Assembly: GCA_036497285.1 (NCBI GenBank)
Contig: DASXJR010000062.1
Span: forward strand, 281-64,280
Reading direction: 5' to 3'
DNA from: Jatrophihabitans sp.
Lineage (GTDB): Bacteria; Actinomycetota; Actinomycetes; Mycobacteriales; Jatrophihabitantaceae
DNA: 64,000 nt
Shown: positions 9,018 to 62,609 of the stretch, in pieces
How the letters are laid out: every line of letters begins with the position of its first letter
How positions within the stretch are numbered: position 1 is the first letter of the stretch
Program-made: the position numbers and the translations under genes
The notes under the pieces: model-generated
The model's database searches: none
Seen by the model: only the letters and a program-made list of their open reading frames with translations
What the model was told of the DNA's origin: nothing

Positions 9018-9560
9018 ATGTCGGGGGACGCCCAGAATCGGCTGTCTACGCGCATCGCGGACGTGTGGGGCCATTTCGCGCCGGAGATCCTGTGCGTTTC
9101 GATCGTCGGCGCGATCATCGTCGGACTGCGCCCGCCCGACAGTCCGGTGATGCTCACGCTGCCGCTCGCATTGATGCTGGTCGTGCTGGTCAGTTGGATA
9201 CTGATGCGCCGCCACGACCGTCGGTTGTGTGAGCAGTGCATGGCTGCGATGCCGCTCAACGCCGCCGAGCAGTCCGCCAAGTACGGGCGGCGGTTCTGGA
9301 TGGCGCATACCGGCTCCGAGCCGCGGTTCCTGATCCCCTACCTGGCCGTGCTCATCGGCTCGAACTTCTTCCCTGGCACGTGGGGCCGCATCGTGTGGGC
9401 ACTCGTCCAGCTCACGATGGTCTACCTGATCATGAGCCACGTGGCGCACCGCCGCTTCCAGCCGTGGTGCCCGTGGTGCCGCGACGGTGGCGGCGGCAGC
9501 GAGCGTGACGACGACGTGGCACCGCCGCCGCTCCCCGACCACGACCGCGAACTGGTCTGA
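9018..9560 (+). CDS. Integral membrane protein with two CxxC motifs, unknown function
   Basis: 180 aa. AGGAGG RBS. About 4 TM helices. CEQC and CPWC motifs. Confidence 0.55.
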   Translation: MSGDAQNRLSTRIADVWGHFAPEILCVSIVGAIIVGLRPPDSPVMLTLPLALMLVVLVSWILMRRHDRRLCEQCMAAMPLNAAEQSAKYGRRFWMAHTGSEPRFLIPYLAVLIGSNFFPGTWGRIVWALVQLTMVYLIMSHVAHRRFQPWCPWCRDGGGGSERDDDVAPPPLPDHDRELV

Positions 9561-9570
9561 CCTACCTGCG

Positions 9571-9667
9571 CACCGACAATGGTCAGTGCGCGCACCGACA
9601 GTGGTCAGTTGGAGCGCACAGTGGTCAATTGCAACTGACCACTGTGGACAGAACTAACCACTGTCGG
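9571..9667. repeat. Family A nested-palindrome element, copy A1 (three forward and two reverse motif units)
   Basis: GACAATGGTCAGTG, GACAGTGGTCAGTT, CACAGTGGTCAATT | GCAACTGACCACTGTG, GAACTAACCACTGTC. Sits between convergent stop codons at 9560 and 9682. Confidence 0.9.
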
Positions 9668-9681
9668 GAAACGCGCCCAGC

Positions 9682-10614
9682 TCAATCGGTGGACGAAAGC
9701 GCGCGCACGACCAGCGACGGGCTGGGCCGGCCGAGCTGCTCGGCCATCCAACGGCTCGTCCCGACCAGCGCCTCGAGATCGACGCCGGTCTCGATGCCGA
9801 GCCCGTGCAGCATCCATACGAGATCTTCCGTCGCCAGGTTGCCGGTCGCGTTCTTGGCATAGGGGCACCCGCCGAGGCCGCCCGCGGACGCGTCGACGGT
9901 TGTGATGCCGTACCGCAACGCGGCCAGGGTGTTGGCCAGCGCCTGCCCGTACGTGTCGTGGAAATGCACTGCCAGCCGGTCGGCGGCGATCCCCCGCTCG
10001 CCGAACCCGGTGAGCAGGGCGGTGACATGCCCCGCACTCGCCACCCCGATCGTGTCGCCGAGGGACAGTTGCGAGCAGCCCAGGTCGAGCAACTGCGCGC
10101 CGACCGACACGACCTGCTCGATGGCCACCGCGCCCTCCCAGGGATCGCCGAAGCACATCGAGAGATAGGCGCGCACGTCCAGCCCTGCGTCCCGGGCGCG
10201 AGTCACGACCGGGCCGAACATCGTGATCGACTCCGCCACCGTCCGGTTGAGATTGCGTTTGGCGAACGACTCGGTCGCGCTGCCGAAGATGGCGATCTCG
10301 GTGATGCCGTGGGCCAGCGCACGGTCCAGACCGCGCTCGTTCGGGACGAGGACGGGGTAGCGCACGCCGGGCACCCGCTCGATCCGGCCGATCAGTTCCT
10401 CGGCGTCGGCCAGCTGCGGTACCCACGTCGGGTGCACGAAGCTGGTGGCCTCGATCGTGCGCAGTCCGGCAGCCGCGAGCCGGGCGACGAACTGAGCCTT
10501 CACCTCGACTGGAACCACCGTCGGCTCGTTTTGCAGACCGTCACGAGGCCCCACCTCGTGTATGGTGACGGCACTCGGCAGACCGGGCTCAACAACGCGC
10601 TGCGGGCTTCTCAC
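9682..10614 (-). CDS. Hydroxymethylglutaryl-CoA lyase
   Basis: HMGL-like motifs VTIHEVGPRDGLQNE, ...GDTIGVA..., HFHDTYGQALAN. GTG at 10614 chosen because the longer ORF (to 10692) would overlap the divergent neighbour. Confidence 0.85.
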   Translation of the reverse strand: MRSPQRVVEPGLPSAVTIHEVGPRDGLQNEPTVVPVEVKAQFVARLAAAGLRTIEATSFVHPTWVPQLADAEELIGRIERVPGVRYPVLVPNERGLDRALAHGITEIAIFGSATESFAKRNLNRTVAESITMFGPVVTRARDAGLDVRAYLSMCFGDPWEGAVAIEQVVSVGAQLLDLGCSQLSLGDTIGVASAGHVTALLTGFGERGIAADRLAVHFHDTYGQALANTLAALRYGITTVDASAGGLGGCPYAKNATGNLATEDLVWMLHGLGIETGVDLEALVGTSRWMAEQLGRPSPSLVVRALSSTD

Positions 10615-10684
10615 CCGTCCAGTATCCGTGCGGTAACCCTTAGTCCAGCTTGAACCGGTGTAATGGACGTATGGAGTCCGGCCT

Positions 10685-12271
10685 TTGAGCACAATCAGTC
10701 CCCGTTCCGCACCCCATCATCTGCGGGTGCGGCTGCCCAGCCTCGCCCTCGTGACGGTCACGAGCGTGCTCGTCGCCTGGCTCGCCCGCTGGGGTCCCGA
10801 CTGGCCGGCGCAGGAGTTCCGGGCCTGGATCGCCGGACACGACGGCCTGTCGCTGTGGACGATGCGCTGGTACAGCGGTTCGGCCTTGCCGGGCTATTCA
10901 GTGCTCTATCCGCCGCTCGCCGCGGTGCTGGGCGCGGGCACCGTCGGTGTCGTCGCGTGCGTGGCCATCACCTGGTCCGCCTCCGGGGCGATCCCCAACG
11001 TGAGCCGGCGCCGCGCGACGCTGATCGGCGTCGGAATCGCCGTCAGTGTCACCGAGAACCTGTTGATCGGCCAGGTGCCGTTCCTGCTCGGGACCGCGTT
11101 CGCGGTTGCGGCGGTCCGCAGCCTGCTGACCGGGCGCTCGCCCTACCTCACCGCCGCGCTCGCCGCACTGGCCTCGCTGTCCAGTCCGCTTGCCGGGGCG
11201 TTCGTGCTGCTCGTCTCGCCGGCTCTGGCGCACAACCGCGGGGTACGGGCCGTGTTGCCATTGGGCGCCGCGATCACCGGCTCAGCGGTCGCGTTCGTGA
11301 TCGGCGGGGTGGACGGACCGTTCCCGTGCCCATGGCAGACGTTCCTCGGTGTGGCCGCGTTCTGCGTCGCGATCCTGGTCATCGCTCCTAGGTCGCAGGC
11401 CGCGATGCGCTTGTTCGCCGCCTGCTATCTGCTCGTCGACGTCGCGGCGTTCTTGGCGCCGAACCCGATCGGCGGCAATGTCGCGCGCCTTGCCAAGCTC
11501 GTCGCGATCCCGCTTGCCGTGTACTACCTCGACGGTCGCGGGGTGTGGTCACGCATCCGGACGTCGGCGATCGCGGTGCTCGCGGTCGTGTGGCCGACGG
11601 TGGCATTCGCCTCGTCGGTGGTGCACGGCGCTGATGACCCGTCGCGGGCGCCGTCCTTCTATGCCGGCATCGACCGCTTCCTGGCGAGCCGGCCGGCGCT
11701 GATCTCCGGGCGGCTCGAGATCCCGTTCACCCGCGAACACTGGGAGTCCTACTTCGTCGCACGGCACTTCCCGATCGCCCGCGGGTGGGAACGGCAGTCC
11801 GACCTGCAGTACAACGCCGTCCTCTACAACCGGCTGACGCCCGCGCGCTACCGCGCCTGGCTCGACGACAATGCGGTCAGCGTGGTCGCCCTGCCGCGGG
11901 CACCGCTCGACACCGGAGGCAAGGCCGAGGCGGCGCTGCTGCGGCACGCACCGTCGTACCTCGTCCCGGTCTGGCAGGACGCGCACTGGCGGGTGTGGCG
12001 AGTGGCCGATCCCGAACCGCTCGTGTCCGGGCCGGCCCGGCTGGTCGATCAGGAGCCGTCAGCACTCACCTTGCACTTCTCTGCGCCGGGCACGGCCGTC
12101 GTCCGGGTCCGCGCGAGCAACCTCTGGGTCAGTGATGACCCGGACGCCTGCATCGGCCGTACGCCGCGGGACTGGCTCACGGTCAGTTCGCCGAGCGCCG
12201 GCAACATCCAGGTCAAGACGTCGCTGACGGCGCAGCTGATCACCGGGACGGGCTGCCCCGGCGACCGCTGA
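10685..12271 (+). CDS. Polytopic membrane protein with C-terminal soluble domain (possible GT-C-type glycosyltransferase)
   Basis: 528 aa. About 10 predicted TM helices, then a roughly 200-aa hydrophilic domain. No motif that I can name precisely. Confidence 0.5.
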   Translation: MSTISPRSAPHHLRVRLPSLALVTVTSVLVAWLARWGPDWPAQEFRAWIAGHDGLSLWTMRWYSGSALPGYSVLYPPLAAVLGAGTVGVVACVAITWSASGAIPNVSRRRATLIGVGIAVSVTENLLIGQVPFLLGTAFAVAAVRSLLTGRSPYLTAALAALASLSSPLAGAFVLLVSPALAHNRGVRAVLPLGAAITGSAVAFVIGGVDGPFPCPWQTFLGVAAFCVAILVIAPRSQAAMRLFAACYLLVDVAAFLAPNPIGGNVARLAKLVAIPLAVYYLDGRGVWSRIRTSAIAVLAVVWPTVAFASSVVHGADDPSRAPSFYAGIDRFLASRPALISGRLEIPFTREHWESYFVARHFPIARGWERQSDLQYNAVLYNRLTPARYRAWLDDNAVSVVALPRAPLDTGGKAEAALLRHAPSYLVPVWQDAHWRVWRVADPEPLVSGPARLVDQEPSALTLHFSAPGTAVVRVRASNLWVSDDPDACIGRTPRDWLTVSSPSAGNIQVKTSLTAQLITGTGCPGDR

Positions 12272-20600: not shown

Positions 20601-20673
20601 CGCGCCCGGCAGGACTCGAACCTGCAACCTCTTGATCCGTAGTCAAGTGCTCTATCCGTTGAGCTACGGGCGC
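20601..20673 (-). tRNA. tRNA-Arg (anticodon ACG)
   Basis: Reverse complement GCGCCCGTAGCTCAACGGATAGAGCACTTGACTACGGATCAAGAGGTTGCAGGTTCGAGTCCTGCCGGGCGCG folds as a cloverleaf. Anticodon loop CTACGGA. CCA not encoded. Confidence 0.9.
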
Positions 20674-20730: not shown

Positions 20731-20820
20731 CGGAGGCTCCGGGATTCGAACCCGGGATGGGCTTGTGACCCAAACCGCATTAGCAGTGCGGCGCCATAGA
20801 CCAGACTAGGCGAAGCCTCC
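20731..20820 (-). tRNA. tRNA-Ser (anticodon GCU)
   Basis: Reverse complement GGAGGCTTCGCCTAGTCTGGTCTATGGCGCCGCACTGCTAATGCGG...GGGTTCGAATCCCGGAGCCTCCG. Long variable arm. Anticodon loop CTGCTAA. Confidence 0.9.
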
Positions 20821-23513: not shown

Positions 23514-25166
23514 TTGGAGCACATCGTGGCTGACACAGACCTGGCGCGCACCACCGCGCAACCCGCGAACGGCGCACGACGCCATGCGCATACCGCCCTG
23601 ATCCTGATGGTGATCGCCGGCGCCCAGATGATGGTCGTGCTCGACGGAACGATCGTGAACATCGCGCTGCCGTCGATGGGTCGGTACTTCGACAAGAGCC
23701 AGACGGACATGACGTGGGCGCTCAACGCTTACGCGCTCGCCTTCGGCGGATTCCTGCTGCTCGGCGGTCGCATGGGCGACATCCTGGGGCGCCGGCGGAT
23801 GTTCATCCTGGGCCTGAGCTTGTTCACGATCGGCAGCTTCCTCGCCGGGATCGCGCCCAGCTTCGGGCTGTTGCTCGCCGGTCGCGCCGTGCAGGGCTTC
23901 GGCGGCGCGATCGCCTCGCCCACCGCGCTGTCGCTGATCACGACCGAGTTCGAGGAAGGCCCGGCCCGCACGCGGGCGATCGCGGTCTACGCGGCCGTGT
24001 CCGGTGCGGGTGCCGCGCTCGGGCTGTTGCTCGGCGGCGTCCTCACCAACTACTTCAGCTGGCGCTGGGTGCTGTTCGTCAACATCCCGATCGGCGCCGT
24101 GCTGATCACCGGCGCGTACTTCTACCTGCACGAGTCCGAGCGGCTGAAGGGCAAGTTCGACTTCATCGGCGCGGCGCTGTCGGTGGCCGGCATGGTCGCG
24201 ACGGTGTACGGCTTCATCCACGTCGCACACAGCGGCTGGGGCAATGCCCAGACCTTCGTCGTGTTCGCCGCGGCCGTCGTGCTGCTCACCACGTTCGTGT
24301 ACTACGAGGCCAAGGTGGCGGCCGATCCGATGATGCCGATGCGCATCTTCGAAGACCGCAATCGCGCCGGCGCCTACGTGGTCATGTTCGTCGTCGGTGC
24401 AGCCATGTTCGGCATGTTCTACTTCGTGACCTTCTTCGTGCAGGGCGTACGTGAGTACGGACCGCTGAAGACCGGCTTTTCGTTCCTGCCCGTCGCCTTT
24501 GTGATCGGCATCGTCAGCCAGATCGTGGCCAAGCTGTTGCCGAAGGTCGGCGCGAAACCCCTGCTGATCGCCGGCACGGGCTTGATCACGCTGTCGCTGC
24601 TGTGGTTCTCGACCGTCAACAAGGATTCCGGCTATGCCGGCAAGCTGCTGCCCGGCATGTTCCTGCTCGCTGTCGCGATGGGTTGCCTGTTCGTTCCGCT
24701 GACCGCGACCGCGGTGTCGAACGTCCGCAACACCGACGCGGGTCTCGCCTCAGCGCTGCTCAACGTCGGGCAGCAGGTGGGCGGTGCGCTCGGGTTGTCG
24801 GTGATGACGACGGTATTCGGTACGAGCGCCCGCAGCTGGGCCAGCGGCCACGTGCAGGGTCTCGTGGCGCAGATCCCGACCGACTCGCATCAGGCGGTCT
24901 CCGGGTTCCTGGCCAAGTACGGGCAGAACGGACCGCAGGCCGCTGACATCAAGGGCTTCGTGATGCAGCACCCGAGCACGGCGGGCTTCTTCAGCCACGC
25001 GTACTCGGACTTCGCACGGTCCCTGCAGGCCTACGCGTCCGGCAAGGGCTTCCTGATGGGCGCCGCGTTCGGCCTGGTCGCGTTGGTCGTCGCGATCGTC
25101 ATGATCAACGTCAAGAAGGACGACCTGCCCGCCGACCCGGCCGAAACGGCCGCCGTCGCGGCATAG
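23514..25166 (+). CDS. MFS transporter, DHA2 (EmrB/QacA, 14-TMS) drug-efflux type
   Basis: 550 aa. Motifs LDGTIVNIALP, GGRMGDILGRRRMF. The true start may be the GTG at 23526. Confidence 0.85.
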   Translation: MEHIVADTDLARTTAQPANGARRHAHTALILMVIAGAQMMVVLDGTIVNIALPSMGRYFDKSQTDMTWALNAYALAFGGFLLLGGRMGDILGRRRMFILGLSLFTIGSFLAGIAPSFGLLLAGRAVQGFGGAIASPTALSLITTEFEEGPARTRAIAVYAAVSGAGAALGLLLGGVLTNYFSWRWVLFVNIPIGAVLITGAYFYLHESERLKGKFDFIGAALSVAGMVATVYGFIHVAHSGWGNAQTFVVFAAAVVLLTTFVYYEAKVAADPMMPMRIFEDRNRAGAYVVMFVVGAAMFGMFYFVTFFVQGVREYGPLKTGFSFLPVAFVIGIVSQIVAKLLPKVGAKPLLIAGTGLITLSLLWFSTVNKDSGYAGKLLPGMFLLAVAMGCLFVPLTATAVSNVRNTDAGLASALLNVGQQVGGALGLSVMTTVFGTSARSWASGHVQGLVAQIPTDSHQAVSGFLAKYGQNGPQAADIKGFVMQHPSTAGFFSHAYSDFARSLQAYASGKGFLMGAAFGLVALVVAIVMINVKKDDLPADPAETAAVAA

Positions 25167-25191
25167 GCAGGCGCCGCGTCGCGAACCTCAG

Positions 25192-25261
25192 ATGAGTGGC
25201 GCGTTGTGACGCTGAGTGGCGCGATATTTCGCGCCACTCAGCACGTGAACGCGCCACTCAT
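25192..25261. repeat. Family B nested-palindrome element, copy B1
   Basis: ATGAGTGGCGCG - CTGAGTGGCGCGA tatt TCGCGCCACTCAG - CGCGCCACTCAT, 26 nt after the MFS stop. Confidence 0.9.
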
Positions 25262-25434
25262 CACAATGGACGGGATGTCGAGCCCACGGAGCTGTCCCTT
25301 GTGGACGACCGGGAGATCTCGATTGCCGGCTGTGGACGACGCCCGATCGACCTCGCCGGCCGCGAACCTGGTTTCGTGGATGATTTCGTCAGACTCGGGC
25401 ACGGCCGTACCGCCCGGCCGGATCGATCGCCGAC

Positions 25435-26257
25435 ATGGCCGACCGGATCGGCGCCTACCTCGACGCACTGCCTCCGGACACGGTCGTCGGCGGTATCACC
25501 GCGGCGCGCATGTACGGGCTCTGGCTGCCGGAGCAAGTGCCCGATGAGCGCCTCGAGTTCGTCCTGAATCGCCCCGCATCCCAGGCGCGCGAACTCGCCA
25601 CCTGTAGACGCAGCGAGATCGTCACGCGGCGCCGCGAATTGTCGGCCGACGAGATCGTCATGACCGACCGCTTTCCCATGTTGTCGCCCGCTCGCGTGTG
25701 GGTCGATCTGTGCGAGTCGCTGTCCTTGGAGGACATCGTCAGCGCCGGCGACTGCTTGCTGCGCGGGCTCGCCACCCAGGACGAGCTCATCGCCGCGGTG
25801 GCAATGGCGCGGCATCGCCGCGGCGTTTGCCGTGCCCGGCTCGGCAATGGCGCGGCATCGCCGCGGCGTTTGCCGTGCCCGGCTCGCATTGACCCTGCTC
25901 GATGCACGCTCACGATCCCGCGGCGAGACCCATCTGCGATGCGCCGTCGTCCTCGGCGGATTGCCGTGGCCCGAGGTGAACATGCCCATCTACACCGACG
26001 ATGGCGAGTGGCTGGCCGAACCCGACCTGCACTACAAGGCCGCTCGGCTCGCGCTCGAGTACAACGGAAGCGATCACAGCGGAGTTCGGCGGATGCGCCG
26101 AGACATCACCCGCGAGATCGACATCGATTGGAACGACTGGAAAGTAGTCGTCTTCGGTCCGAACGAGGTCTTTCGCTTTCCGTGGCGGATCGCGCCCTAC
26201 GTCCGGGGGCAGCTGCAGGCTCGCGACCCCGGTTGGTGGCGTCGCCAGGCCGGCTGA
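25435..26257 (+). pseudogene. DUF559 / Vsr-like endonuclease-domain protein (AbiEi-like N-terminus) disrupted by a 43-bp tandem duplication
   Basis: Two overlapping ORFs (25435.. and 25832..26257) both encode [14 protein letters not shown]. Deleting one 43-bp copy gives a continuous 259-aa protein ending ...[10 protein letters not shown]...[15 protein letters not shown]... Confidence 0.75.
25800..25886 (+). repeat. Perfect 43-bp tandem duplication (2 copies) inside the DUF559-like gene
   Basis: GCAATGGCGCGGCATCGCCGCGGCGTTTGCCGTGCCCGGCTCG occurs at 25801-25843 and again at 25844-25886. Confidence 0.95.
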
Positions 26258-26299
26258 GCCCGAGTGCCGGGCCCGCGGTTCCTGAGCCCGAGTGCTGCA

Positions 26300-26368
26300 A
26301 TGAGTGGCGCGAACTGGCGGTGAGTGGCGCGAAATGTCGCGCCACTCATGGGTTAACGCGCCACTCAT
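26300..26368. repeat. Family B nested-palindrome element, copy B2
   Basis: ATGAGTGGCGCG - GTGAGTGGCGCGA aatg TCGCGCCACTCAT - CGCGCCACTCAT. An extra degenerate unit TCGCCACTCAC lies at 26381-26391. Confidence 0.9.
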
Positions 26369-26433
26369 GCGAAAAGAAGGTCGCCACTCACCGGAAAAGG
26401 AGGTCGCGGGTCGTCGGAAAAGGAGGTCGCGGG
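26365..26433 (+). repeat. 23-nt tandem repeat x3 with an AAGGAGG core
   Basis: TCATGCGAAAAGAAGGTCGCCAC / TCACCGGAAAAGGAGGTCGCGGG / TCGTCGGAAAAGGAGGTCGCGGG. Ends 3 nt from the sdaA stop codon. Confidence 0.85.
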
Positions 26434-26436
26434 CGA

Positions 26437-27810
26437 TCAGCACTCGATGACGTTGACGGCCAGGCCGCCGCGCGCAGTCTCCTTGTACTTGATCTTCATG
26501 TCCGCGCCGGTCTCGCGCATCGTCTTGATCACCTTGTCCAGGCTGACGATGTGCCGGCCGTCGCCACGCAGCGCGATCCGTGCCGCGTTGATCGCCTTGA
26601 CGGCCGCCATCGCGTTCCGCTCGATGCACGGCACCTGGACGAGTCCGCCGACCGGGTCGCAAGTGAGCCCCAGGTTGTGCTCCATGCCGATCTCGGCGGC
26701 GTTCTCGACCTGATCCGGCGTGCCGCCGAGCACCTCGCACAGCGCCCCGGCCGCCATCGAACACGCCGACCCGACCTCGCCCTGGCACCCGACCTCGGCC
26801 CCTGAGATCGACGCGTTCTCCTTGTACAGCACCCCGATCGCGCCGGCCGTCAGCAGGAACCGCACCACCGCGTCGTCCGAGGCACCTGGGCAGAACCGCA
26901 CGTAGTAGTGCAGCACGGCGGGCAGAATTCCGGCCGCACCGTTCGTGGGCGCAGTGACCACCCGTCCCCCGCCGGCGTTCTCCTCGTTCACCGCGAGCGC
27001 GAACAGGTCGACCCAGTCCATCACTCGCAGCGGGTCGACGTTGTACTGCTCGGCGCACAGCCGCCGGTACAGCGCGGGCGCCCGGCGCGGCACCTTCAGC
27101 CCGCCCGGCAACGTCCCGTCGTGCGAGCAGCCGTTGGTGACACACTCCTGCATCACCGCCCAGATCGAGAGCAGCTTCGACCGGACCTCCTCCTGGCTGC
27201 GTCCGAACGCCTGCTCGTTCGCGAGCATCACCTGGCTGATCGACAACCCGGACTCGCGGCAGCGCGACAGCAGCGCGTCGCCGGTCTTGAACGGGTACGG
27301 CAGCTCGGTGGTGTCCTCGGTGATCCGGTCCGCCCCGGCGGCCTGCTCGTCGACCACGAACCCGCCGCCGACCGAGTAGTAGGTGCGCTCCCGCACGCAA
27401 TCGCCGGATGCCGAGTAGGCGTAGAACCGCATCCCGTTCGGGTGGAACGGCAGGCTCTGCCGCCGATGCATCACCAGGTCGTCATCCACCAGCGCGGCGG
27501 AGTGCCTGCCTAGCAACGACACCTCCTCGGCCGCCTTGATCGCCGCCACTCGCTCGCCGACCGAATCCGTGTCGACGGACTCCGGCGCCTCGCCCTCGAG
27601 CCCGAGGATCACCGCCCGGTCGCTGCCGTGGCCGTGCCCGGTCGCGCCGAGTGACCCGAACAACTCCGCGCGCACGCGCACGACCGACTCGAGCACACCG
27701 TCCGCCTCAAGGCCGAGTGCGAACGTCCGCGCCGCGCGCATCGGCCCGACCGTGTGCGACGACGACGGTCCGATCCCGATCGAGAACAGGTCGAACACAC
27801 TGATGGCCAC
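26437..27810 (-). CDS. sdaA: L-serine ammonia-lyase (L-serine dehydratase, single-chain Fe-S type)
   Basis: GTG start gives [24 protein letters not shown], the canonical SdaA N-terminus. C-terminus ...[10 protein letters not shown]. Confidence 0.9.
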
Positions 27811-39315: not shown

Positions 39316-39386
39316 ACCGGCGATTGTGTCAGCGTCTGTTGTCGGGCGCGGACGCCGGCTGGCGTTGGCAGCCTGACCTTGTACCG

Positions 39387-39431
39387 GTTTTGGCGGTCTG
39401 ACGTTCTCTACGGCGACAGGCCGCCAAAAGT
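39387..39431. repeat. Family C hairpin element, copy C3
   Basis: GTTTTGGCGGTCTG - 16-nt loop - CAGGCCGCCAAAAGT. Ends 3 nt from the fba stop codon. Confidence 0.8.
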
Positions 39432-39434
39432 GCG

Positions 39435-44904: not shown

Positions 44905-46590
44905 GTGGAAGCTCCTCCTGAAGTGCCCCCCGGCGGCCTGCGCGTCGTCGCCCTCGGCGGCATCAAGGAGATCGGCCGCAACATGACGATGTTCGAGTAC
45001 CGCCCGGAGCGCGGGCCGAGCCGGTTGCTCGTCGTCGATTGCGGCATGTTGCTCGGCAAGACCAACTCACCCGGCGTGGACGTGACGCTGCCGGACTGGT
45101 CGTACTTCGACGAACGGCTCGGCGACATCGACGCAGTGGTGCTCACGCACGGCCACGAGGACCACATCGGCGCGCTGCCCTACCTGCTCAAGGCGCGGCG
45201 TGACGTGCCGGTGTACGGCTCGCGGCTGACGCTCGCGCTGGTGGCCGCCAAGCTCGAGCAGCACCGCATCCACAATCCTGATCTCCGCCAGGTGCGCGAG
45301 GGCGAACTGACCGACGTCGGGCCCTGGGGTCTGGAGTTCTTCGCCGTCAACCACTCGATCCCGGACGCGCTCGCCGTGGCGATCCGGGTCGGCGGGCAGA
45401 CCGTGCTGCACACCGGCGACTTCAAGATGGACCAGACGCCGCTCGACGGGCGCCTCACCGACCTGAACGGATTCGCGCGGCTCGGCGACGAGGGCGTCGA
45501 TCTACTACTCGCCGACTCGACCAACGCCGAGGTGGGCGGATTCATCCCGTCCGAGCGGCAGGTCGGGACAGTGGTGTCCGACGTGATCGCCAAGGCGCCC
45601 GGGCGGATCATCGTGGCCTGCTTCGCCTCGCACGTCCACCGCGTGCAGCAGGTGCTCGACGCCGCCCGCGCCAACGGACGCCAGGTCGCACTGGTCGGGC
45701 GGTCGATGGTGCGCAACATGACGATCGCCCGTGAACTCGGGCTGCTGCACGTTCCCGACAATCTGCTGATCGACCTCAAGGTGGCCGAGGAGCTGCCCTC
45801 GCGGCGGGTGCTGTTGATCTCCACCGGGTCGCAGGGCGAGCCGCTGTCGGCGCTGTCGCGAATGGCCAACCGCGACCACCAGACGGTGCGGATCAGCACC
45901 GACGACACGATCCTGCTGGCGTCCTCGCTGATCCCGGGGAACGAGACCTCGGTCGGGCACGTGATCAACGGCCTGTCGCGGCTCGGGGCGACGGTGGTGC
46001 ACAAGTCCACCGCGCTGGTGCACGTCTCCGGACACGCGCCGGCCGGCGAGCTGCGGTACCTGCTCAATGCGGTCCGTCCGGCCAACCACATGCCGGTGCA
46101 CGGCGAGTGGCGGCACCTGCGGGCGCACGCCGAGATCGCCAAGTCTGTCGGCATCCCGCCCGAACGGATCATGCTGGCCGAGGACGGCACCGTGGTCGAC
46201 CTCGTCGACGGGATGGCGTCGATCACCGGCCATATCCCGGTCGGCTACGTGTACGTGGACGGACTCGAGGTCGGCGACATCGGCGATGTCACGCTCAAGG
46301 ACCGCCGCATCCTGGGCGAGGAGGGCTTCCTCTCGATCCTGGTGGCCGTGGACCTCGAGGCGGGCAAGGTCGTCTACGGGCCCGAGATCACGGCGCGCGG
46401 GTTCAGCGACGACCCGGCCGCGGTCGAGCCGATCCTGGCCGAGCTCGTGGAAGTCGTCGAACGTGCGCTGGTCGACGGCAACCGGGACGTGGACTCGCTG
46501 CAGCACCTGGTGCGGCGGACGGTCGGACGTTGGGTCGACCGCGAGTACCGCCGCCGCCCGATGCTCATCCCCACCGTCGTCGAGGTCTGA
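44905..46590 (+). CDS. rnj: Ribonuclease J
   Basis: 561 aa. Metallo-beta-lactamase HGHEDHIG, beta-CASP and C-terminal domains. Confidence 0.9.
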   Translation: MEAPPEVPPGGLRVVALGGIKEIGRNMTMFEYRPERGPSRLLVVDCGMLLGKTNSPGVDVTLPDWSYFDERLGDIDAVVLTHGHEDHIGALPYLLKARRDVPVYGSRLTLALVAAKLEQHRIHNPDLRQVREGELTDVGPWGLEFFAVNHSIPDALAVAIRVGGQTVLHTGDFKMDQTPLDGRLTDLNGFARLGDEGVDLLLADSTNAEVGGFIPSERQVGTVVSDVIAKAPGRIIVACFASHVHRVQQVLDAARANGRQVALVGRSMVRNMTIARELGLLHVPDNLLIDLKVAEELPSRRVLLISTGSQGEPLSALSRMANRDHQTVRISTDDTILLASSLIPGNETSVGHVINGLSRLGATVVHKSTALVHVSGHAPAGELRYLLNAVRPANHMPVHGEWRHLRAHAEIAKSVGIPPERIMLAEDGTVVDLVDGMASITGHIPVGYVYVDGLEVGDIGDVTLKDRRILGEEGFLSILVAVDLEAGKVVYGPEITARGFSDDPAAVEPILAELVEVVERALVDGNRDVDSLQHLVRRTVGRWVDREYRRRPMLIPTVVEV

Positions 46591-46627
46591 CCGCGTCTGC
46601 CGCAGCCTGCTCGACCCGCTGGTGCGG

Positions 46628-46697
46628 ATGAGTGGCGCATTTTGCGCGTGAGTGGCGCGATATCTCGCGCCACTCATGCCCGTATCCCGCCACTCAT
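46628..46697. repeat. Family B nested-palindrome element, copy B3
   Basis: ATGAGTGGCGCA - GTGAGTGGCGCGA tatc TCGCGCCACTCAT - CCCGCCACTCAT, 38 nt after the rnj stop and upstream of map. Confidence 0.9.
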
Positions 46698-46731
46698 CGA
46701 GACCGGGGTTCGCGCCGCCCGGCACAATAGA

Positions 46732-49851: not shown

Positions 49852-50468
49852 ATCACTGCGTGCTGGCGGATCCAGGTGTGCATCGCGATCCCTGCGGCGA
49901 CGCCGGCGTTGATCGAGCGGGTCGAGCCGAACTGGGAGATCGACACCGTCAGTGCGGCAACCGCACGCGCCTCGTCGGACAGCCCCGTCCCCTCCTGCCC
50001 GAACAACAGCAGCGCGTGGCGCGGCAGCGTCGTGGTCTCGAGCGGCACTGCACCGGGCAGGTTGTCGACGGCCACCAGTGTGTAGCCCTGCTCGGACGCG
50101 TAGGCCGCCAGGTCAGCTGGGGTGTCCAGGTGGCGCACGTGCAAGTAGCGGTCGGTGACCATCGCACCGCGCCGATTCCAGCGCCGCCGTCCGACGATGA
50201 TCACCTCGCGAGCCTGGAAGGCGTTCGCCGTGCGCACCACCGTCCCGATGTTCAGGTCGTGGCGCCAGTTCTCGATCGCCACGGCGAACTCGTGCCGCGT
50301 TGTGTCCAGGTCGGCCTTGATCGCCTCGACCGTCCAGTACCGGTACCGGTCGGCGACGTTGCGGCGGTCGCCATGGCGCAGCAGGCCCGGGTCCATCCGC
50401 GGGTCGTCCGGCCAGGGCTGCGGGTGCGGCCCGACCCCGACGTCCGGACAGTGGTCAGTTTCGTCCAC
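49848..50468 (-). CDS. TrmH/SpoU-family RNA 2'-O-methyltransferase
   Basis: C-terminal SPOUT knot motifs (LLFGQEGTGLS, IPQ-like SISQFGSTRSINAGVAAGIAMH). Start uncertain: GTG 50468 lies inside repeat A2, ATG 50396 is an alternative. Confidence 0.75.
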   Translation of the reverse strand: MDETDHCPDVGVGPHPQPWPDDPRMDPGLLRHGDRRNVADRYRYWTVEAIKADLDTTRHEFAVAIENWRHDLNIGTVVRTANAFQAREVIIVGRRRWNRRGAMVTDRYLHVRHLDTPADLAAYASEQGYTLVAVDNLPGAVPLETTTLPRHALLLFGQEGTGLSDEARAVAALTVSISQFGSTRSINAGVAAGIAMHTWIRQHAVI

Positions 50469-50514
50469 AGTGGTTAGTTGTAACTGACCACTATCGCCGG
50501 AACTAACCACTGTC
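50447..50514. repeat. Family A nested-palindrome element, copy A2
   Basis: GACAGTGGTCAGTT - CACAGTGGTTAGTTG|TAACTGACCACTAT - GAACTAACCACTGTC. Ends 6 nt from the pyrE stop. Confidence 0.9.
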
Positions 50515-50520
50515 GGCGCA

Positions 50521-51042
50521 TCAGGCGAGGCCGAGGTCGGCGAGGGTGTAGACCGAGCGCGCCTCGAAGCCCTCGGCCTCGATCGTGGCGAGGCCGCCGC
50601 GATCGGCGATCAGCGCGACGCCGGCGACGGTGGCGCCGGCTTCCTGTGCGGCCCGGGCGGCGGTCAGGGGTGAGTCCCCGGTCGTCGAGACGTCGTCGAC
50701 GATCAGCACCCGGCGTCCCTCGACGGACGGGCCCTCGATCTGCTGCTGCATACCGTGCGCCTTCTGCGCCTTACGGACGAGGAACGCGTCCACCGCACCG
50801 CCGGACGCGTGCATCACCGCGCAGGCCACCGGGTCCGCGCCCAGAGTGAGCCCGCCGACCGCGTCGTAGTCCCAGTCGGACGTGAGCGAGCGCAGCGCGG
50901 CCCCGACCAGCGGGCCGGCGGTGCGGTGCAGCGAGATGCGCCGCAAGTCGAGGTAGTAGTCGGCCTCTTTGCCGGAGGACAGCGTGACCTTGCCGTGCAC
51001 CACGGCGAGGTCCTTGATCAGATCGAGCAGTTGGTCAGCCAC
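50521..51042 (-). CDS. pyrE: Orotate phosphoribosyltransferase
   Basis: 173 aa. PRPP-binding motif VLIVDDVSTTGDS. Confidence 0.9.
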   Translation of the reverse strand: MADQLLDLIKDLAVVHGKVTLSSGKEADYYLDLRRISLHRTAGPLVGAALRSLTSDWDYDAVGGLTLGADPVACAVMHASGGAVDAFLVRKAQKAHGMQQQIEGPSVEGRRVLIVDDVSTTGDSPLTAARAAQEAGATVAGVALIADRGGLATIEAEGFEARSVYTLADLGLA

Positions 51043-56721: not shown

Positions 56722-56771
56722 ACAGTCACTATCTCCTGTGTTGAGGTCCTGACGACACAACGAACCGCAAG

Positions 56772-56790
56772 TTGAGTCTGTTCCGCTCAA
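56772..56790 (-). promoter_or_regulatory. HAIR-like inverted repeat (HspR operator) about 50 nt upstream of clpB
   Basis: TTGAGT ctgttcc GCTCAA. Compare the HAIR consensus CTTGAGT-N7-ACTCAAG: one arm exact, one mismatch in the other, correct 7-nt spacer. hspR is encoded in the same window. Confidence 0.6.
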
Positions 56791-56858
56791 CCCAGTCCGA
56801 CTTGGCCTCCCAGCAGGGCGACACGCCGCGCACGACCCTGCTGCGGGGCCAAGCCGGG

Positions 56859-58415
56859 TCAGGCAAGAGCGATCATGGTGTCCGCGGCGGCGGCGAGGAC
56901 GGGATCGTGGGTCGCGGCGACGACGGCCACCCCGGCGCGGGCTGCCGCGACGAGCACCGCGGCGACGATCTCCGCGTGCGCTTCGTCCTGCTGGGAGGTC
57001 GGTTCGTCCAGCACCACGAGCGGACGCTGGGTCACCAGCGACCGGGCGATCCCGACCCGCTGCCGCTCGCCGCCCGACAGCAGCCGGACGGGCCGGCGCG
57101 AGACCGCGGCCAGGCCGAGCGCGGCAACCACCGAGCGGGCCGGCGCGTCGTCGGGCGACATGCCGCGGGCGGCGCGGGCGAGGGCCAGGTTCTCCCAGGT
57201 GTCCAGCGGCTCGGCGAGCGCGCCGGACTGCATGCTCACCCCGACCAGCGCCCGGCGCACATCGGCCCGGGCGCTGCGCGACAGCACCGCCAGGTCGTGC
57301 TCGCCGAGGCGCACTGTGCCCGAGTCGGGGTCCGCGAGACCGAGAAGCAGCCGCAGCAGGGTCGACTTGCCGGCCCCGGACCGTCCCCGCACGATCGTCA
57401 GCGCGCCGGGTGCGATCGTCGCGTCGAAGCCGTCGAACACGACGCGGTCGCCGTAGCTCACGCCGATGTCGCGCAGCGCTGCCACCGGTCCGTCCGTGAC
57501 TTGCTGCGGAGGTTGCAGCTGGATCGTCCGATCCGGCTCCGGCAGGTACTCGCCGTCGCCGGACAGCATTGCCGCGTCGCCGTGCGCCCGCACCCGCGCG
57601 CGCTCGCGCAGCCCGATCCGGCGGCGCAGAGACTCCGGCAGACGCACCCAGCCCCGGTCGTCGACCACGAGCTCCTCGTCGTCCGGCGCGTCCGGGGACC
57701 ACTGCTCGGACAGCCGACCGTCGCGGATGCGCACCACCCGGTCGGCGATGCGGGCCGCCCGCTGGTCGTGGGTGACGAGCACGAGCGTGGCGTCCGCGCG
57801 CTTGGCTGCCGCGGCCAGCAGGTCGTAGACGGCGTCGGCAGCGTCGATGTCCAGCTCGCCGGTGGGTTCGTCGGCGAGCACGACGGACGGGCCGTGCGCC
57901 ATCGCGGCACAGACGGCCACCCGCTGCGCCTCGCCCGCGGACAGCGTCGGCGGGCGCCGCGCGGCGAGCGCGGAAAGGCCGAGCGCGCCGAGCGACTCCT
58001 CGGCGGTGGCGCGGGCCGCGCGGCGGTCGTGCCCGGACAGCCGTAGCTGCAGCGCGACGTTGTCGAGCACGTCCAGCTCGGGTCGCAGCGCACGTCCCGA
58101 GTGCTGGTCGACGACGCCGAGCACCTCGCGCCGCAGTCCGGAAAGCCGGGCCGACCGCGCGCCGGCCAATTCCACGCCGCTCACCCGCACCGATCCGGAG
58201 CTGGCCGCCACCTCGCCGGTCAGCACCCGCAGCAAGGTCGTCTTGCCCGACCCGTTCGGACCGTGCACGACCAGGCCTTCCCCGGCTGGCACGCGCAGCG
58301 ACAAGCCGCGCAATGCTGCCACCGTCGCTCCGCCCGGCACTGTGTACAGGCAGAACAGATCGGCCACGCGGATCGCGTCCTGTGCGCGCTCGTTCTGGAC
58401 GGGTTCGATGGTCAT
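56859..58415 (-). CDS. ABC transporter ATP-binding protein with two fused nucleotide-binding domains
   Basis: 518 aa. NBD1 GPNGSGKTT / LSAGEAQR / VVLADEPT. NBD2 GRSGAGKST / LSGGERQR / VVLDEPT. Confidence 0.85.
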   Translation of the reverse strand: MTIEPVQNERAQDAIRVADLFCLYTVPGGATVAALRGLSLRVPAGEGLVVHGPNGSGKTTLLRVLTGEVAASSGSVRVSGVELAGARSARLSGLRREVLGVVDQHSGRALRPELDVLDNVALQLRLSGHDRRAARATAEESLGALGLSALAARRPPTLSAGEAQRVAVCAAMAHGPSVVLADEPTGELDIDAADAVYDLLAAAAKRADATLVLVTHDQRAARIADRVVRIRDGRLSEQWSPDAPDDEELVVDDRGWVRLPESLRRRIGLRERARVRAHGDAAMLSGDGEYLPEPDRTIQLQPPQQVTDGPVAALRDIGVSYGDRVVFDGFDATIAPGALTIVRGRSGAGKSTLLRLLLGLADPDSGTVRLGEHDLAVLSRSARADVRRALVGVSMQSGALAEPLDTWENLALARAARGMSPDDAPARSVVAALGLAAVSRRPVRLLSGGERQRVGIARSLVTQRPLVVLDEPTSQQDEAHAEIVAAVLVAAARAGVAVVAATHDPVLAAAADTMIALA

Positions 58416-58490
58416 GGCCTCATCGACCCGCTCCCGGCTCGATCCGCTCCTTAGTCGCGGACTGTGCTTCTTGGCTCGTCGCGCGAGCGC

Positions 58491-61493: not shown

Positions 61494-61521
61494 TAACCAT
61501 TGGCCGTCATTTAGTGGTTAG
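61493..61521. promoter_or_regulatory. Inverted repeat CTAACCA-N15-TGGTTAG in the permease/CGNR divergent intergenic region (candidate operator)
   Basis: Read directly. The left arm abuts the permease start codon. The right arm is 24 nt upstream of the CGNR gene ATG. Confidence 0.3.
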
Positions 61522-61544
61522 CATGCTCCCATGCGGGGGTCGCG

Positions 61545-62129: not shown

Positions 62130-62154
62130 CGCCCCAGCCCCAACCGTCCAGAAC

Positions 62155-62223
62155 GACAGTGGTCAGTTTCGTCAGTCAGTGGTTAGTTGCAACTGACCAC
62201 TGTGGCCGGAACTGACCACTGTC
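62155..62223. repeat. Family A nested-palindrome element, copy A3
   Basis: GACAGTGGTCAGTT - TCAGTGGTTAGTTG|CAACTGACCACTGTG - GAACTGACCACTGTC. Between the convergent stops of the CGNR gene and hspR. Confidence 0.9.
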
Positions 62224-62234: not shown

Positions 62235-62609
62235 TCAGCGCTTTGGTTTCCAGACCACCAGGGCCGCCGTGGTCGGGTTGCGCGCCGCCAGTTCGGAGCG
62301 GGAGTGGTCGAGTTCGGCACCCAGTTCGGCCACGCGCTGGCGCAGCACGTCGATTAGCGCCTCGAGCTCGATGATCCGCTTCACCCCGGCGAGATTGACG
62401 CCGTCCTCCTGGGACAGCCGCTGCACCTCCCTCAGCAGCGCGACGTCGCGGGCCGAGTAGCGCCGCCCGCCGCCGCCGGTGCGTCCCGGCGTGACCAGGC
62501 CGAGCCGGTCGTACTGGCGCAGCGTCTGGGCGTGCATGCCCGCCAACTGCGCGGCCACCGAGATGACGAACACCGGGGCGTCCTCGGGGACGTCCTCACG
62601 CCTGGGCAT
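62235..62609 (-). CDS. hspR: Heat-shock repressor HspR (MerR family)
   Basis: 124 aa from [39 protein letters not shown]. 14-nt overlap with the dnaJ stop. Confidence 0.9.

What the first reader, a model, noticed from the sequence alone, without database searches (positions are those of the whole stretch)
9571..9667. Family A: about 70-bp nested palindrome built from four copies of one motif (> > < <), three copies in the window
Copies lie at 9571-9667, 50447-50514 and 62155-62223. The layout is GACAGTGGTCAGTT - 5 nt - CAGTGGTTAGTTG|CAACTGACCACTG - 4-5 nt - GAACTRACCACTGTC. The inner pair forms a zero-spacer, near-perfect 26-bp palindrome, and the outer pair can pair around it. Copy A1 carries an extra forward unit produced by a 22-nt tandem duplication (GCGCACCGACARTGGTCAGTK x2), so the element is still evolving. 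The six-frame track translates the element as SGQLQLTTV in several spurious ORF ends. I do not recognise it as a described repeat family. Its structure recalls REP/BIME clusters or MITE-like elements, but no transposase is nearby.
Basis: seen in the sequence. Interest (0 to 1): 0.65.

Follow-up and report, generated by a model that had tools for sequence, protein, structure and literature searches.

The report
Hairpin repeat family with partner nuclease
The 68-base nested palindrome is a real dispersed repeat of a group of soil actinobacteria that sits just after stop codons, and each such repeat family flanks its own Vsr-like nuclease gene, much as REP repeats flank RAYT transposase genes, a pairing I could not find described.

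Summary
Three 68-69-nt copies with four units (> > < <) lie at 9597-9665 (plus a 22-nt tandem duplication), 50447-50514 and 62155-62223. The family has at least 60 further copies in Jatrophihabitans-like soil Actinomycetota. None were found in plasmid, phage, Rfam or literature searches.

Copies abut stop codons (-2 to about +30 nt) and form -40 to -65 kcal/mol hairpins. Stem pairs covary, and copies persist at orthologous sites between genomes about 79-93% identical. Presence/absence polymorphism exists, with no target duplication and no autonomous parent.

The main new result concerns a ~280-aa protein ("X") with an AbiEi-like N-part and a Vsr/DUF559/EDxHD-like nuclease C-part. In all 12 loci examined it is flanked on both sides by palindromic repeats. 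In ten of these loci the repeats have the same four-unit geometry. The repeat core changes with the paralogue: Family A at the leuCD locus, and a sister family, GAGTGGCGCG, inside this window at 25191-26369.

DnaA-box-like TGTGGAC pairs precede every X gene. This resembles a REPtron (REP plus RAYT) built on a different enzyme.

A terminator or 3'-end role fits the position but is untested. I found no strand bias favouring the sense RNA. Mobilisation by X is inferred, not shown.

The parts
9568..9665 (.). Family A copy 1. The core nested palindrome is 9597-9665. An extra forward unit comes from a 22-nt tandem duplication (9568-9589 / 9590-9611). The copy lies between convergent genes 9018-9560 (+) and 9682-10692 (-, HMGL-like).
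50447..50514 (.). Family A copy 2. It lies 6 nt downstream of the stop of 50521-51042 (-, phosphoribosyltransferase) and upstream of a SpoU methylase gene (-). An orthologous copy is present in L025:657-724 and in L056/L068.
62155..62223 (.). Family A copy 3. It lies between convergent genes 61545-62129 (+, CGNR zinc finger) and 62235-62723 (-, MerR-family, likely hspR, downstream of dnaJ). A sub-family B element occupies the same place in L025.
25191..25262 (.). Sister family C element (core GAGTGGCGCG) with the same > > < < geometry. It is the upstream flank of the X gene and lies 25 nt after the stop of the MFS gene 23514-25166.
25300..25337 (+). Two TGTGGAC boxes (25300, 25331) between the upstream element and the X start. 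They match the core of the actinobacterial DnaA box TTGTCCACA.
25435..26257 (+). Gene X, the family-C paralogue, with an AbiEi-like N-part and a Vsr/DUF559-like nuclease C-part. It is broken by an exact 43-nt tandem duplication (25800-25842 / 25843-25885). Removing one copy restores a 259-aa frame.
26299..26369 (.). Sister family C element, the downstream flank of the X gene.
46627..46698 (.). Sister family C element, a dispersed copy 37 nt after the stop of the RNase J gene 44905-46590.

Best explanation
Family A is the dispersed, non-autonomous repeat of a REPtron-like system.

The proposed partner is a chromosomal, vertically inherited gene X of about 280 aa. Its N-part is AbiEi-like and its C-terminal nuclease domain is Vsr/DUF559/EDxHD-like. 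X is bracketed by two copies of its own repeat family and preceded by a pair of DnaA-box-like TGTGGAC sites.

I propose that X binds the roughly 68-bp palindrome as a symmetric oligomer. Each arm offers two direct units about two helical turns apart, and the AT-richer centre GTTGYAAC lies under the nuclease domains. Cutting there would drive copying and homogenisation of the repeats by recombination or repair.

New copies survive mainly just downstream of stop codons, where a very stable hairpin is tolerated. There they may serve as bidirectional 3'-end structures of transcripts.

Shown here:
- the family, its geometry and its hairpin covariation;
- its position at gene ends and its persistence and polymorphism;
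- the invariable flanking of X by palindromic repeats, with the core co-varying with the X paralogue;
- the nuclease fold of X.

Inferred only: binding, cleavage, the copying mechanism, DnaA control, and any effect on transcripts.
For: Family and structure:
- At least 63 full copies were found in Jatrophihabitans-like genomes and soil metagenomes, all with one geometry.
- 88.6% of stem cells pair. The covariation score is 0.148 against 0.083 in shuffles, with 0/500 shuffles reaching it.
- One spacer pair shows UA 18, AU 8, GC 8, CG 4. Compensatory changes occur between orthologous copies L009, L012 and L024.

Position:
- 51 of 61 copies have a gene 3' end within 60 nt, and 16 have one on both sides. 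The distance is mostly -2 to +27 nt.

Persistence:
- Orthologous copies are 81-97% identical where the flanks are 79-93% identical. Unrelated copies average 87%.

Polymorphism:
- L008 is filled and L020 is empty at the same site.
- A metagenome contig joins 25240 to 26437, leaving one hybrid element and no X gene.

Copy number:
- Summed contig depth over copy 1 reaches about 3600, against about 26 beside it.

Partner gene:
- All 12 X loci, at 7 different genomic places, carry a palindromic repeat on each side. Ten of them have the four-unit > > < < layout. The two most distant loci (L156, L157) have 65-70-nt palindromes without clear four-unit structure.
- The cores are A, B, C, D, E, F and G.
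- X identity tracks core similarity. The N-part is always more diverged than the nuclease part.
- Two MAGs hold both the A-flanked X and 13-16 dispersed A copies.

Fold of X:
- The AlphaFold model has pLDDT 93.5.
- It matches Rv2827c/AbiEi (probability 1.00), the I-Bth0305I catalytic domain (probability 0.99, TM 0.71 relative to the target) and Vsr (0.84).
- Pfam and PADLOC hits are AbiEi_1, DUF559, MTES_1575 and AbiEi.
- I-Bth0305I is a homodimer that footprints about 60 bp around a central pseudopalindrome (PMC3239194).

DnaA-box-like sites:
- 19 TGTGGAC boxes occur in 1147 nt upstream of X, against 0.21 expected. They match TTGTCCACA (PMC4285127).
Against: - No biochemical or transcript evidence exists for any step.
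- For families D-G and the two distant loci, I saw no dispersed copies within 8-10 kb of flank on each side of X. A dispersed population is shown only for A, B and, with one copy, C.
- PD-(D/E)xK nucleases are not known to transpose DNA on their own.
- I found no target-site signature that would reveal an insertion mechanism.
- X of family C is broken in this genome, yet its repeats persist.
- The X that would partner Family A is not in this window, so the link for this genome rests on relatives.
- Gene conversion between copies could mimic the compensatory changes.
Confidence: 0.55

Rival explanations
1. The element is a TRIT-like RNA element. The hairpin would work in the transcript as a bidirectional, U-tract-less terminator or as a 3' stabiliser against exonucleases. 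The sequence conservation would reflect a double-stranded-RNA-binding factor, possibly X itself, since Vsr-like folds can act on RNA (the FASTK/RAP proteins). Spread would be secondary.
For: - The position is tight against stop codons, with many copies between convergent genes.
- The hairpins are very stable on both strands.
- A relative carries gene plus element where this window has an ordinary A/T-tract hairpin, at 39360-39433.
- TRIT in Mycobacterium has the same description: 147 copies, palindromic, a narrow distance to the stop codon, and a proposed dsRNA-binding factor (PMC3152330).
- The Vsr-like protein FASTKD4 acts on mRNA 3' ends (PMC11879112).
Against: - The element has no U-tract. 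The flanks are C-rich on the 5' side and G-rich on the 3' side.
- Mycobacterial RNA polymerase needs a U-tract (title of PMC3993855).
- Term-seq in M. tuberculosis found predicted TRITs at only 2-4% of mapped 3' ends.
- In 35 one-sided copies the sense strand is no more stable than the antisense strand (14 against 19, p = 0.21).
- An RNA role does not explain why every X gene is bracketed by its own repeat family.
- Metatranscriptome contigs did not cover the element.
Confidence: 0.22
2. X is a selfish, homing-type gene that targets pre-existing palindromes. The repeats would exist for another reason, and each X variant would have inserted at, or recombined into, the palindrome type it recognises. 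This would give the element-X-element arrangement.
For: - The catalytic domain resembles a homing endonuclease.
- A population variant lacks X plus one element, leaving a single hybrid element.
- The palindrome centre is a demonstrated target for other mobile DNA: an ISL3 element with 8-bp duplication GTTGYAAC in L107.
- Many X genes sit on contigs of about 1 kb.
Against: - X is syntenic and diverges with its host. The arrangement Aldedh-X-IclR-leuCD holds at 62-90% identity, and TetR-MFS-X-sdaA is shared by the window and L150. That is not the pattern of an actively moving gene.
- X is flanked by whole elements, not by the two halves of one.
- The short contigs are explained equally well by assembly breaks at repeats.
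Confidence: 0.13
3. The element is a double-stranded-DNA binding array for a regulator or nucleoid protein. X or another factor would use the four units as operators. The dispersed copies would form a regulon or titration sites, perhaps coupled to DnaA, with no mobility involved.
For: - The four conserved cores have fixed spacing of about two helical turns.
- AbiEi proteins are DNA-binding autoregulators (my own knowledge).
- The A unit AGTGGTCA differs from the DnaA-box core TGTGGACA at two positions, and TGTGGAC boxes lie next to the X genes.
- Comparable inverted heptamer arrays in Geobacter were annotated as global-regulator sites (PMC2700814).
Against: - The sites lie after stop codons rather than in promoters.
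- Covariation in the non-conserved spacer argues for base pairing, not just protein contacts.
- Presence/absence polymorphism and about 87% identity among all copies indicate copying.
- Conserved catalytic residues suggest X cuts rather than only binds.
Confidence: 0.07
4. The element is a classical REP/REPIN mobilised by a RAYT (HUH tyrosine transposase), or a MITE mobilised by a DDE transposase encoded elsewhere in the genome.
For: The general look is REP-like: extragenic, palindromic, high copy and vertically persistent. The genomes could not be scanned whole, so a RAYT elsewhere is not excluded.
Against: - There is no GTAG or CGTC tag and no target-site duplication.
- The arms are direct repeats that cannot fold alone, unlike REPs.
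- No transposase lies in the window.
- The only IS seen next to half elements is an intruder with its own inverted repeats.
- Surveys of REP and RAYT do not report Actinobacteria.
- The gene that the repeats do flank is not an HUH enzyme.
Confidence: 0.03

Closest known systems
REP/REPIN elements with their RAYT genes (REPtrons)
   Same: - Both are short extragenic palindromes in many copies, mostly downstream of genes.
- Several families can coexist in one genome.
- Each family brackets its own single-copy, vertically inherited partner gene.
- Copies persist at orthologous sites, and no target duplication is seen.
   Different: - The partner here is an AbiEi-like plus Vsr/DUF559-like PD-(D/E)xK nuclease, not an HUH Y1 transposase.
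- There is no GTAG or CGTC tag.
- Each arm is a direct repeat of one unit rather than a self-folding REP, so the element is one 33-bp-stem hairpin, not two inverted hairpins.
- The host is Actinomycetota, where the REP and RAYT papers I searched make no mention of them.
TRIT (Tuberculosis Rho-independent terminator motif, Gardner et al. 2011)
   Same: Both are actinobacterial, sequence-conserved palindromic hairpins with on the order of 100 or more copies. Both are bidirectional and tightly placed at stop codons, sometimes overlapping them. A sequence-specific partner factor was proposed for TRIT.
   Different: TRIT was reported only in Mycobacterium. I could not compare its sequence or model here. 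No flanked partner gene has been described for it, and Term-seq gave little support for termination there.
EDxHD homing endonucleases (I-Bth0305I) and Vsr
   Same: The C-terminal domain of X has this fold. I-Bth0305I is a multidomain homodimer that footprints about 60 bp around a central pseudopalindrome, which matches the size and symmetry of the element.
   Different: X is not inside an intron or intein and is syntenic rather than invasive. Its N-part is AbiEi-like. No cleavage data exist for X.
Inverted heptanucleotide arrays (Geobacter class 3 'global regulator sites'; cyanobacterial STRR heptamers)
   Same: The Family A unit is two heptamers, CAGTGGT and CAGTTGN. Arrays of the same heptamers, some as inverted pairs after stop codons, occur in lower-GC metagenome contigs. 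The identical 26-nt centre occurs in a Desulfococcaceae genome.
   Different: Those are variable-length tandem arrays, not a fixed four-unit element. No partner gene is known for them, and homology with Family A is not established.
MITEs such as Correia, ERIC and RUP
   Same: They are small, non-coding, dispersed, fold as RNA hairpins and are often co-transcribed with neighbouring genes.
   Different: MITEs have terminal inverted repeats related to an IS and make target duplications. Neither was found here.

Membership tests
REP/REPIN-RAYT (REPtron) | Short extragenic palindromes in high copy number, mostly downstream of genes | tested here: met
   At least 63 full copies were found. 51 of 61 lie within 60 nt of a gene 3' end. 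Summed contig depth over copy 1 reaches about 3600 against about 26 beside it.
REP/REPIN-RAYT (REPtron) | Unpaired GTAG or CGTC tag at one end of each REP | tested here: not met
   The ends are Y|GACAGTGG...CCACTGTC|R. There is no GTAG. A CCGTCC motif occurs in some C-rich flanks but at variable distance and on either side.
REP/REPIN-RAYT (REPtron) | Each REP folds on its own, and a REPIN is two inverted REPs | tested here: not met
   Each arm is a direct repeat of one unit, so only the whole element folds.
REP/REPIN-RAYT (REPtron) | The cognate partner gene is an HUH Y1 transposase flanked by the repeats | tested here: not met
   The flanked gene hits AbiEi_1, DUF559 and MTES_1575 and has a Vsr/EDxHD-like fold. 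No Y1 transposase was seen in the window.
REP/REPIN-RAYT (REPtron) | The partner gene is vertically inherited at a fixed locus, with family-specific flanking repeats | tested here: met
   Synteny was observed at 62-90% protein identity, and seven repeat cores sort with the paralogues.
TRIT | Sequence-conserved palindromic hairpin with a narrow distance to stop codons | tested here: met
   Distances are -2 to about +27 nt, and the TGA stop overlaps the element end in 13 of the gene ends recorded.
TRIT | Match to the TRIT covariance model or sequence | not testable with these tools
   No TRIT model or alignment was available. Rfam gave only spurious miRNA hits below threshold, and no supplement is held for the paper.
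Canonical intrinsic terminator | GC-rich hairpin followed at once by a U-tract | tested here: not met
   No T-run follows either arm. The flanks are C-rich on the 5' side and G-rich on the 3' side.
MITE | Terminal inverted repeats shared with an autonomous IS, and target-site duplication | tested here: not met
   The filled/empty pair shows no duplication. Half elements are copies split by an ISL3 element or truncated.
Integron attC | R''-L''/L'-R' inverted core sites with an integrase and attI nearby | tested here: not met
   Units within an arm are direct, not inverted. No integrase lies in the window.
Vsr/DUF559/EDxHD nucleases (for protein X) | Vsr-like PD-(D/E)xK fold with conserved acidic and His residues | tested here: met
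   Foldseek matches 3r3p (probability 0.99) and 1vsr (0.84). E173, D206, E217 and H223 are invariant in 44 sequences.
Vsr/DUF559/EDxHD nucleases (for protein X) | Nuclease activity on a defined substrate | not testable with these tools
   This requires purified protein.

The most novel reading that the evidence does not exclude
Actinomycetota may carry a previously unrecognised class of nuclease-repeat partnerships, a functional analogue of REP-RAYT built on a Vsr/DUF559-type nuclease with an AbiEi-like recognition domain. Each paralogue would maintain its own family of about 68-bp nested palindromes at gene ends. Its expression would be tied to DnaA through paired DnaA boxes. If so, this would give a function to part of the very large DUF559/AbiEi_1 protein family and might explain conserved 3'-end hairpins such as TRIT in mycobacteria.
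Probability: 0.45. Interest if true: 0.9.

Novelty: new variant of a known kind. Interest (0 to 1): 0.8.

Why it matters
REP-like repeats are among the commonest non-coding features of bacterial genomes. So far only one enzyme class, the RAYT HUH transposases, has been tied to them, and CGTC-type REPs and TRITs have no known partner.

Here a different nuclease family shows the same telltale arrangement across at least seven loci and seven repeat cores. One example is in a cultured strain with a complete genome (Geodermatophilus sp. URMC 63).

That makes several questions directly testable:
- how such palindromes are copied and kept uniform;
- what the abundant actinobacterial DUF559/AbiEi_1 proteins do;
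- whether conserved hairpins at actinobacterial gene ends act in DNA, in RNA, or in both.

It also matters for annotation. The elements generate spurious ORF ends, supply or overlap stop codons, and break short-read assemblies.

Tried and rejected
- Rfam at gathering threshold found only two tRNAs. At permissive E-value the element hit only miRNA hairpin models far below threshold.
- Literature search for the unit as a sequence string returned only primers.
- BLAST of the consensus against plasmids and phages found no match.
- Metatranscriptome contigs (X25, X26) gave no coverage of the element. Only the conserved part of hspR was covered, so no 3'-end information was obtained.
- A strand-bias test, sense against antisense hairpin stability in 35 one-sided copies, showed no difference.
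- A search for target-site duplication at the L008/L020 filled/empty pair found none. The insertion is about 100 nt and includes a partial extra unit.
- 'Half elements' as ends of an autonomous parent were rejected. L107 (and probably L067, which shares the junction sequence) is split by an ISL3 insertion with its own inverted repeats. L035 is split by another repeat. L070 and L114 are truncated.
- The integron-cassette idea arose from indels next to elements in L003/L017, L015/L018 against the window, and L025 against the window. It was rejected because there is no second site, no integrase, and the units are direct.
- A profile search of X against PDB sequences found no hit. Only the fold search was informative.
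- The look-up of the Jatrophihabitans endophyticus homologue P0230 was not on record.
- Dispersed copies of families D-G could not be assessed, because only 8-10 kb of flank on each side of X is held for those genomes.

Full report
**1. The observation**

The unit CAGTGGTYAGTT occurs 17 times at up to 2 mismatches, against 3.2 expected. Thirteen of those hits lie in the three copies.

The core elements are 9597-9665, 50447-50514 and 62155-62223. Copy 1 carries an extra forward unit through a 22-nt tandem duplication, 9568-9589 / 9590-9611, 20/22 identical.

Unit starts are 19-20, 17 and 19-20 nt apart in every copy examined. Each copy folds into one long hairpin, -42 to -70 kcal/mol as RNA, z -5.4 to -8.8. 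The fold is similar with DNA parameters.

The window is about 69% G+C and is ordinary chromosomal core. It holds pst/phoU, purine genes, fba, RNase J and dnaJ-hspR, with no transposase.

**2. The family elsewhere**

The central palindrome occurs in 34 loci of the species-representative genome set:
- three uncultured Actinomycetota MAGs from one project;
- a Jatrophihabitans MAG;
- unexpectedly, a Desulfococcaceae genome, where only the inner palindrome is present.

A profile search gave 42 actinobacterial copies in these loci plus the window. Four of them belong to a sub-family B with CGAGTGGTCA units in the same layout. A metagenome scan with the two-unit arm added 25 more full copies.

Nothing similar is in plasmids or phages, in Rfam, or, as a sequence string, in the paper library.

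The window's own population is in soil metagenomes. Summed contig depth over the element reaches about 3600 against about 26 beside it, and short-read contigs break at the element. From about 1 copy per 20-30 kb in the sequence held, I infer on the order of 100-250 copies per genome. This is inference, not a count.

**3. Structure and constraint**

On an alignment of 42 copies, 88.6% of stem cells pair. Covariation exceeds all 500 shuffles and all slid controls.

The pair next to the inner unit shows UA 18, AU 8, GC 8, CG 4, while the cores AGTGGTCA/TGACCACT are invariant. Orthologous copies in three genomes (L009, L012, L024) differ by compensatory double changes.

Orthologous copies are 81-97% identical where their mostly coding flanks are 79-93% identical. 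Unrelated copies average 87%. All copies are therefore held near one consensus, by selection, by homogenisation, or by both.

**4. Position**

Of 61 full copies, 51 have a high-GC3 ORF ending within 60 nt on at least one side. Sixteen have one on both sides (convergent genes). The usual distance is -2 to +27 nt.

In 13 of the gene ends recorded, the TGA stop overlaps the first bases of the element, as T|GACAGTGG. The sequence leading into either arm is C-rich, often CCCGTCC, and no T-run follows.

In the window:
- copies 1 and 3 fill convergent intergenic gaps;
- copy 2 lies 6 nt after a stop in a co-directional pair;
- copy 3 follows the dnaJ-hspR operon.

**5. Dynamics**

- L008 has a copy where L020, about 88% identical around it, has only TGA-CGGG-TCA. 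No target duplication is visible.
- At the place of window copy 3, a relative carries a sub-family B element. The window has 5.4 kb of extra genes beside it.
- Where relatives have an MFS gene plus an element, the window has an ordinary A/T-tract hairpin.
- Arms without partners proved to be damaged copies. In L107 an ISL3-family IS sits exactly in the centre with an 8-bp duplication GTTGTAAC/GTTGCAAC, and L067 shows the same junction sequence. The others are truncated or hold another repeat.
- I found no autonomous parent.

**6. A sister family and a flanked gene**

A scan for inverted repeats showed a second family in the window with the same geometry but core GAGTGGCGCG. Its copies are at 25191-25262, 26299-26369 and 46627-46698.

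The first two bracket a gene of about 1 kb with low GC3. That gene is homologous to a 285-aa ORF which, in L014, L027 and L140, is bracketed by two Family A copies.

The window's gene is broken by an exact 43-nt tandem duplication. Independent short-read contigs span the junction.

One metagenome contig joins 25240 to 26437, leaving a single hybrid element. Strains without the gene and one element therefore exist.

**7. The association is general**

I looked up homologues at decreasing identity. Every one of 12 loci, at 7 distinct genomic places, has a palindromic repeat on each side. Ten of them show the four-unit > > < < layout.

| Place | Loci | Repeat core |
|---|---|---|
| Aldedh-X-IclR-leuCD | L014, L027, L140, L144, L147 | A (L147 has degenerate inner units) |
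| Aldedh-X-IclR-leuCD | L149 | B-like |
| TetR-MFS-X-sdaA | window, L150 | C |
| Trp-dioxygenase/TetR-X | L151, L153 | D (GAGTGGTGCG) |
| Trp-dioxygenase/TetR-X | L154 | F (GATTGGCGC) |
| ADK-X-AMP-ligase | L152 | E (SACTGGYGCG) |
| infA-X-map, inside the ribosomal protein cluster | L155 | G (CAGTGGGRCG) |
| Two distant homologues | L156 (Geodermatophilus sp. URMC 63), L157 | 65-70-nt palindromes of other sequence |

Further points:
- X identity tracks core similarity. The A/B group is 59-74% identical, the C/D group 62-66%, and identity between groups is 42-50%.
- The N-part is always more diverged than the nuclease part.
- One genome (locus tags VGH30) holds at least two paralogues.
- Two MAGs hold both the A-flanked X and 13-16 dispersed A copies.
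- Many X genes lie on contigs of about 1-1.2 kb, as expected if repeats on both sides stop assembly.

**8. What X is**

Pfam and PADLOC give AbiEi/AbiEi_1 for the N-part. A minority of members hit DUF559 and REase_MTES_1575 for the C-part.

The AlphaFold model is confident, with pLDDT 93.5 and pTM 0.90. It matches:
- Rv2827c, an AbiEi-type protein (by my own knowledge), probability 1.00;
- the catalytic domain of the EDxHD homing endonuclease I-Bth0305I, probability 0.99, TM 0.71 relative to the target;
- Vsr, probability 0.84.

Residues E173, D206, E217 and H223 are invariant.

I-Bth0305I is a multidomain homodimer that footprints about 60 bp around a central pseudopalindrome (PMC3239194). 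That is a striking fit to a 68-bp palindrome with an AT-richer centre.

The wider family is large: 623 representatives at E of 1e-30 or better, and 7215 at 1e-10 or better.

**9. DnaA-box-like sites**

Between the upstream repeat and the X start there are TGTGGAC/GTCCACA boxes, usually two, direct or inverted. I counted 19 in 1147 nt against 0.21 expected from the high-GC loci.

Several are the full TTGTCCACA, the high-affinity DnaA box of M. tuberculosis and S. coelicolor (PMC4285127). That DnaA binds them is inference.

**10. Mechanism**

The best-supported reading is a REPtron-like partnership. X recognises its family's palindrome, and the family is copied and kept uniform through X. Copies accumulate at gene ends, where they are tolerated and may be useful as 3'-end hairpins.

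The association and the nuclease fold are shown. Binding, cutting and copying are inferred.

The RNA-only reading (TRIT-like terminator or stabiliser) fits the position but has several weaknesses:
- the element lacks a U-tract;
- I found no sense-strand bias in stability (14 against 19, p = 0.21);
- it has an unfavourable precedent in M. tuberculosis Term-seq;
- it does not explain the flanking of X.

The two readings are not exclusive.

**11. Comparison with what is known**

The closest system is REP/REPIN-RAYT. It is the same in logic, but differs in enzyme class, tags and arm structure. It is not mentioned for Actinobacteria in the REP and RAYT papers I searched.

TRIT is the closest described element in an actinobacterium. 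Homology could not be tested.

Searches combining AbiEi, DUF559, Vsr-like, REPtron and repeats found no paper that links them.

I rate the finding as a new variant of a known kind.

Noticed in passing
window 25191-25262, 26299-26369, 46627-46698: A second repeat family (core GAGTGGCGCG, centre CGCGATATTTCGCG) has the same four-unit > > < < geometry as Family A. Two copies bracket a gene and one lies after the RNase J gene.
   Followed up: yes
window 25800-25885: An exact 43-nt tandem duplication frameshifts the Vsr-like gene X. Short-read contigs from other runs span the junction. Together with the 22-nt duplication in copy A1, this suggests short tandem duplications are frequent in this genome.
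   Followed up: partly
window 25240-26437 (run X3): A low-depth metagenome contig joins 25240 to 26437 through one hybrid family C element. This is a strain variant lacking gene X and one flanking element.
   Followed up: partly
window 25300-25337; L144, L147, L149-L157 upstream of X: Pairs of TGTGGAC/GTCCACA boxes, the core of the actinobacterial DnaA box TTGTCCACA, precede every X gene. I counted 19 in 1147 nt against 0.21 expected.
   Followed up: partly
L107:489-528 and 1946-1987; L067:1528-1566: An ISL3-family insertion sequence sits exactly in the centre of a Family A element with an 8-bp target duplication GTTGYAAC. The same junction sequence appears at a second locus, so the palindrome centre may be an IS hotspot.
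   Followed up: partly
L042, L047, L055, L057, L062, L138 and about 50 other loci at 57-64% G+C: Lower-GC peat and soil contigs carry the conserved 34-mer ACAGTGGTCAGTTGTCAGTGATCAGTGGTCAGTT and longer arrays of CAGTNNT heptamers just after stop codons. Some have an inverted partner array that forms a long hairpin. The taxon was not determined, and I saw no X homologue in those loci.
   Followed up: no
L073, L075, L141 (about 40% G+C); L036, L121: Tandem arrays of a 21-nt unit begin with the Family A 13-mer, as ACAGTGGTCAGTTTGTTAACC or ACAGTGGTCAGTTCGCTGTGT. They look iteron-like and have the same period of about 21 nt as the unit spacing in Family A.
   Followed up: no
L002:2818-2849, L026:4383-4423 (Desulfococcaceae HSG8); L103:25-92: The identical 26-nt centre CAGTGGTCAGTTGCAACTGACCACTG occurs as a simple 34-nt palindrome in an AT-richer deltaproteobacterial genome, where about 0.02 chance matches are expected. 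It also occurs next to what looks like a tRNA gene in L103.
   Followed up: no
window 39360-39433: An ordinary bidirectional hairpin with A and T tracts (TTTTGGCGG...CCGCCAAAA) lies downstream of the fba gene. At this place the relatives L015 and L018 carry an MFS gene followed by a Family A element.
   Followed up: partly
window 56740-62158: About 5.4 kb (ABC ATPase, a 1000-aa FtsX-like permease and a CGNR zinc-finger gene) is absent from the syntenic L025. One boundary of the indel is the element downstream of hspR.
   Followed up: partly
window 62340-62720: Soil metatranscriptome contigs at 85-95% identity pile up on the conserved part of the MerR/hspR gene, with summed word depth up to about 1e5. 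The cause is not established: either high expression across relatives or an artefact of one library.
   Followed up: no
flanks of most copies, e.g. L003:540-554, L028:7267-7290, window 62139-62148: The 10-25 nt leading into either arm are C-rich and G-poor, often with CCCGTCC. The motif occurs on either side and at variable distance, and its meaning is unknown.
   Followed up: partly
L035:1385-1440 and 1545-1615: Another repeat of about 60 nt (GGGCTTGAAGAGCGCAGCGACG...GCTGCCGGCTTGGGGT) lies on both sides of a half Family A element.
   Followed up: no
window 20601-20673, 20731-20820: Two tRNA genes on the minus strand are the only Rfam matches at gathering threshold.
   Followed up: no
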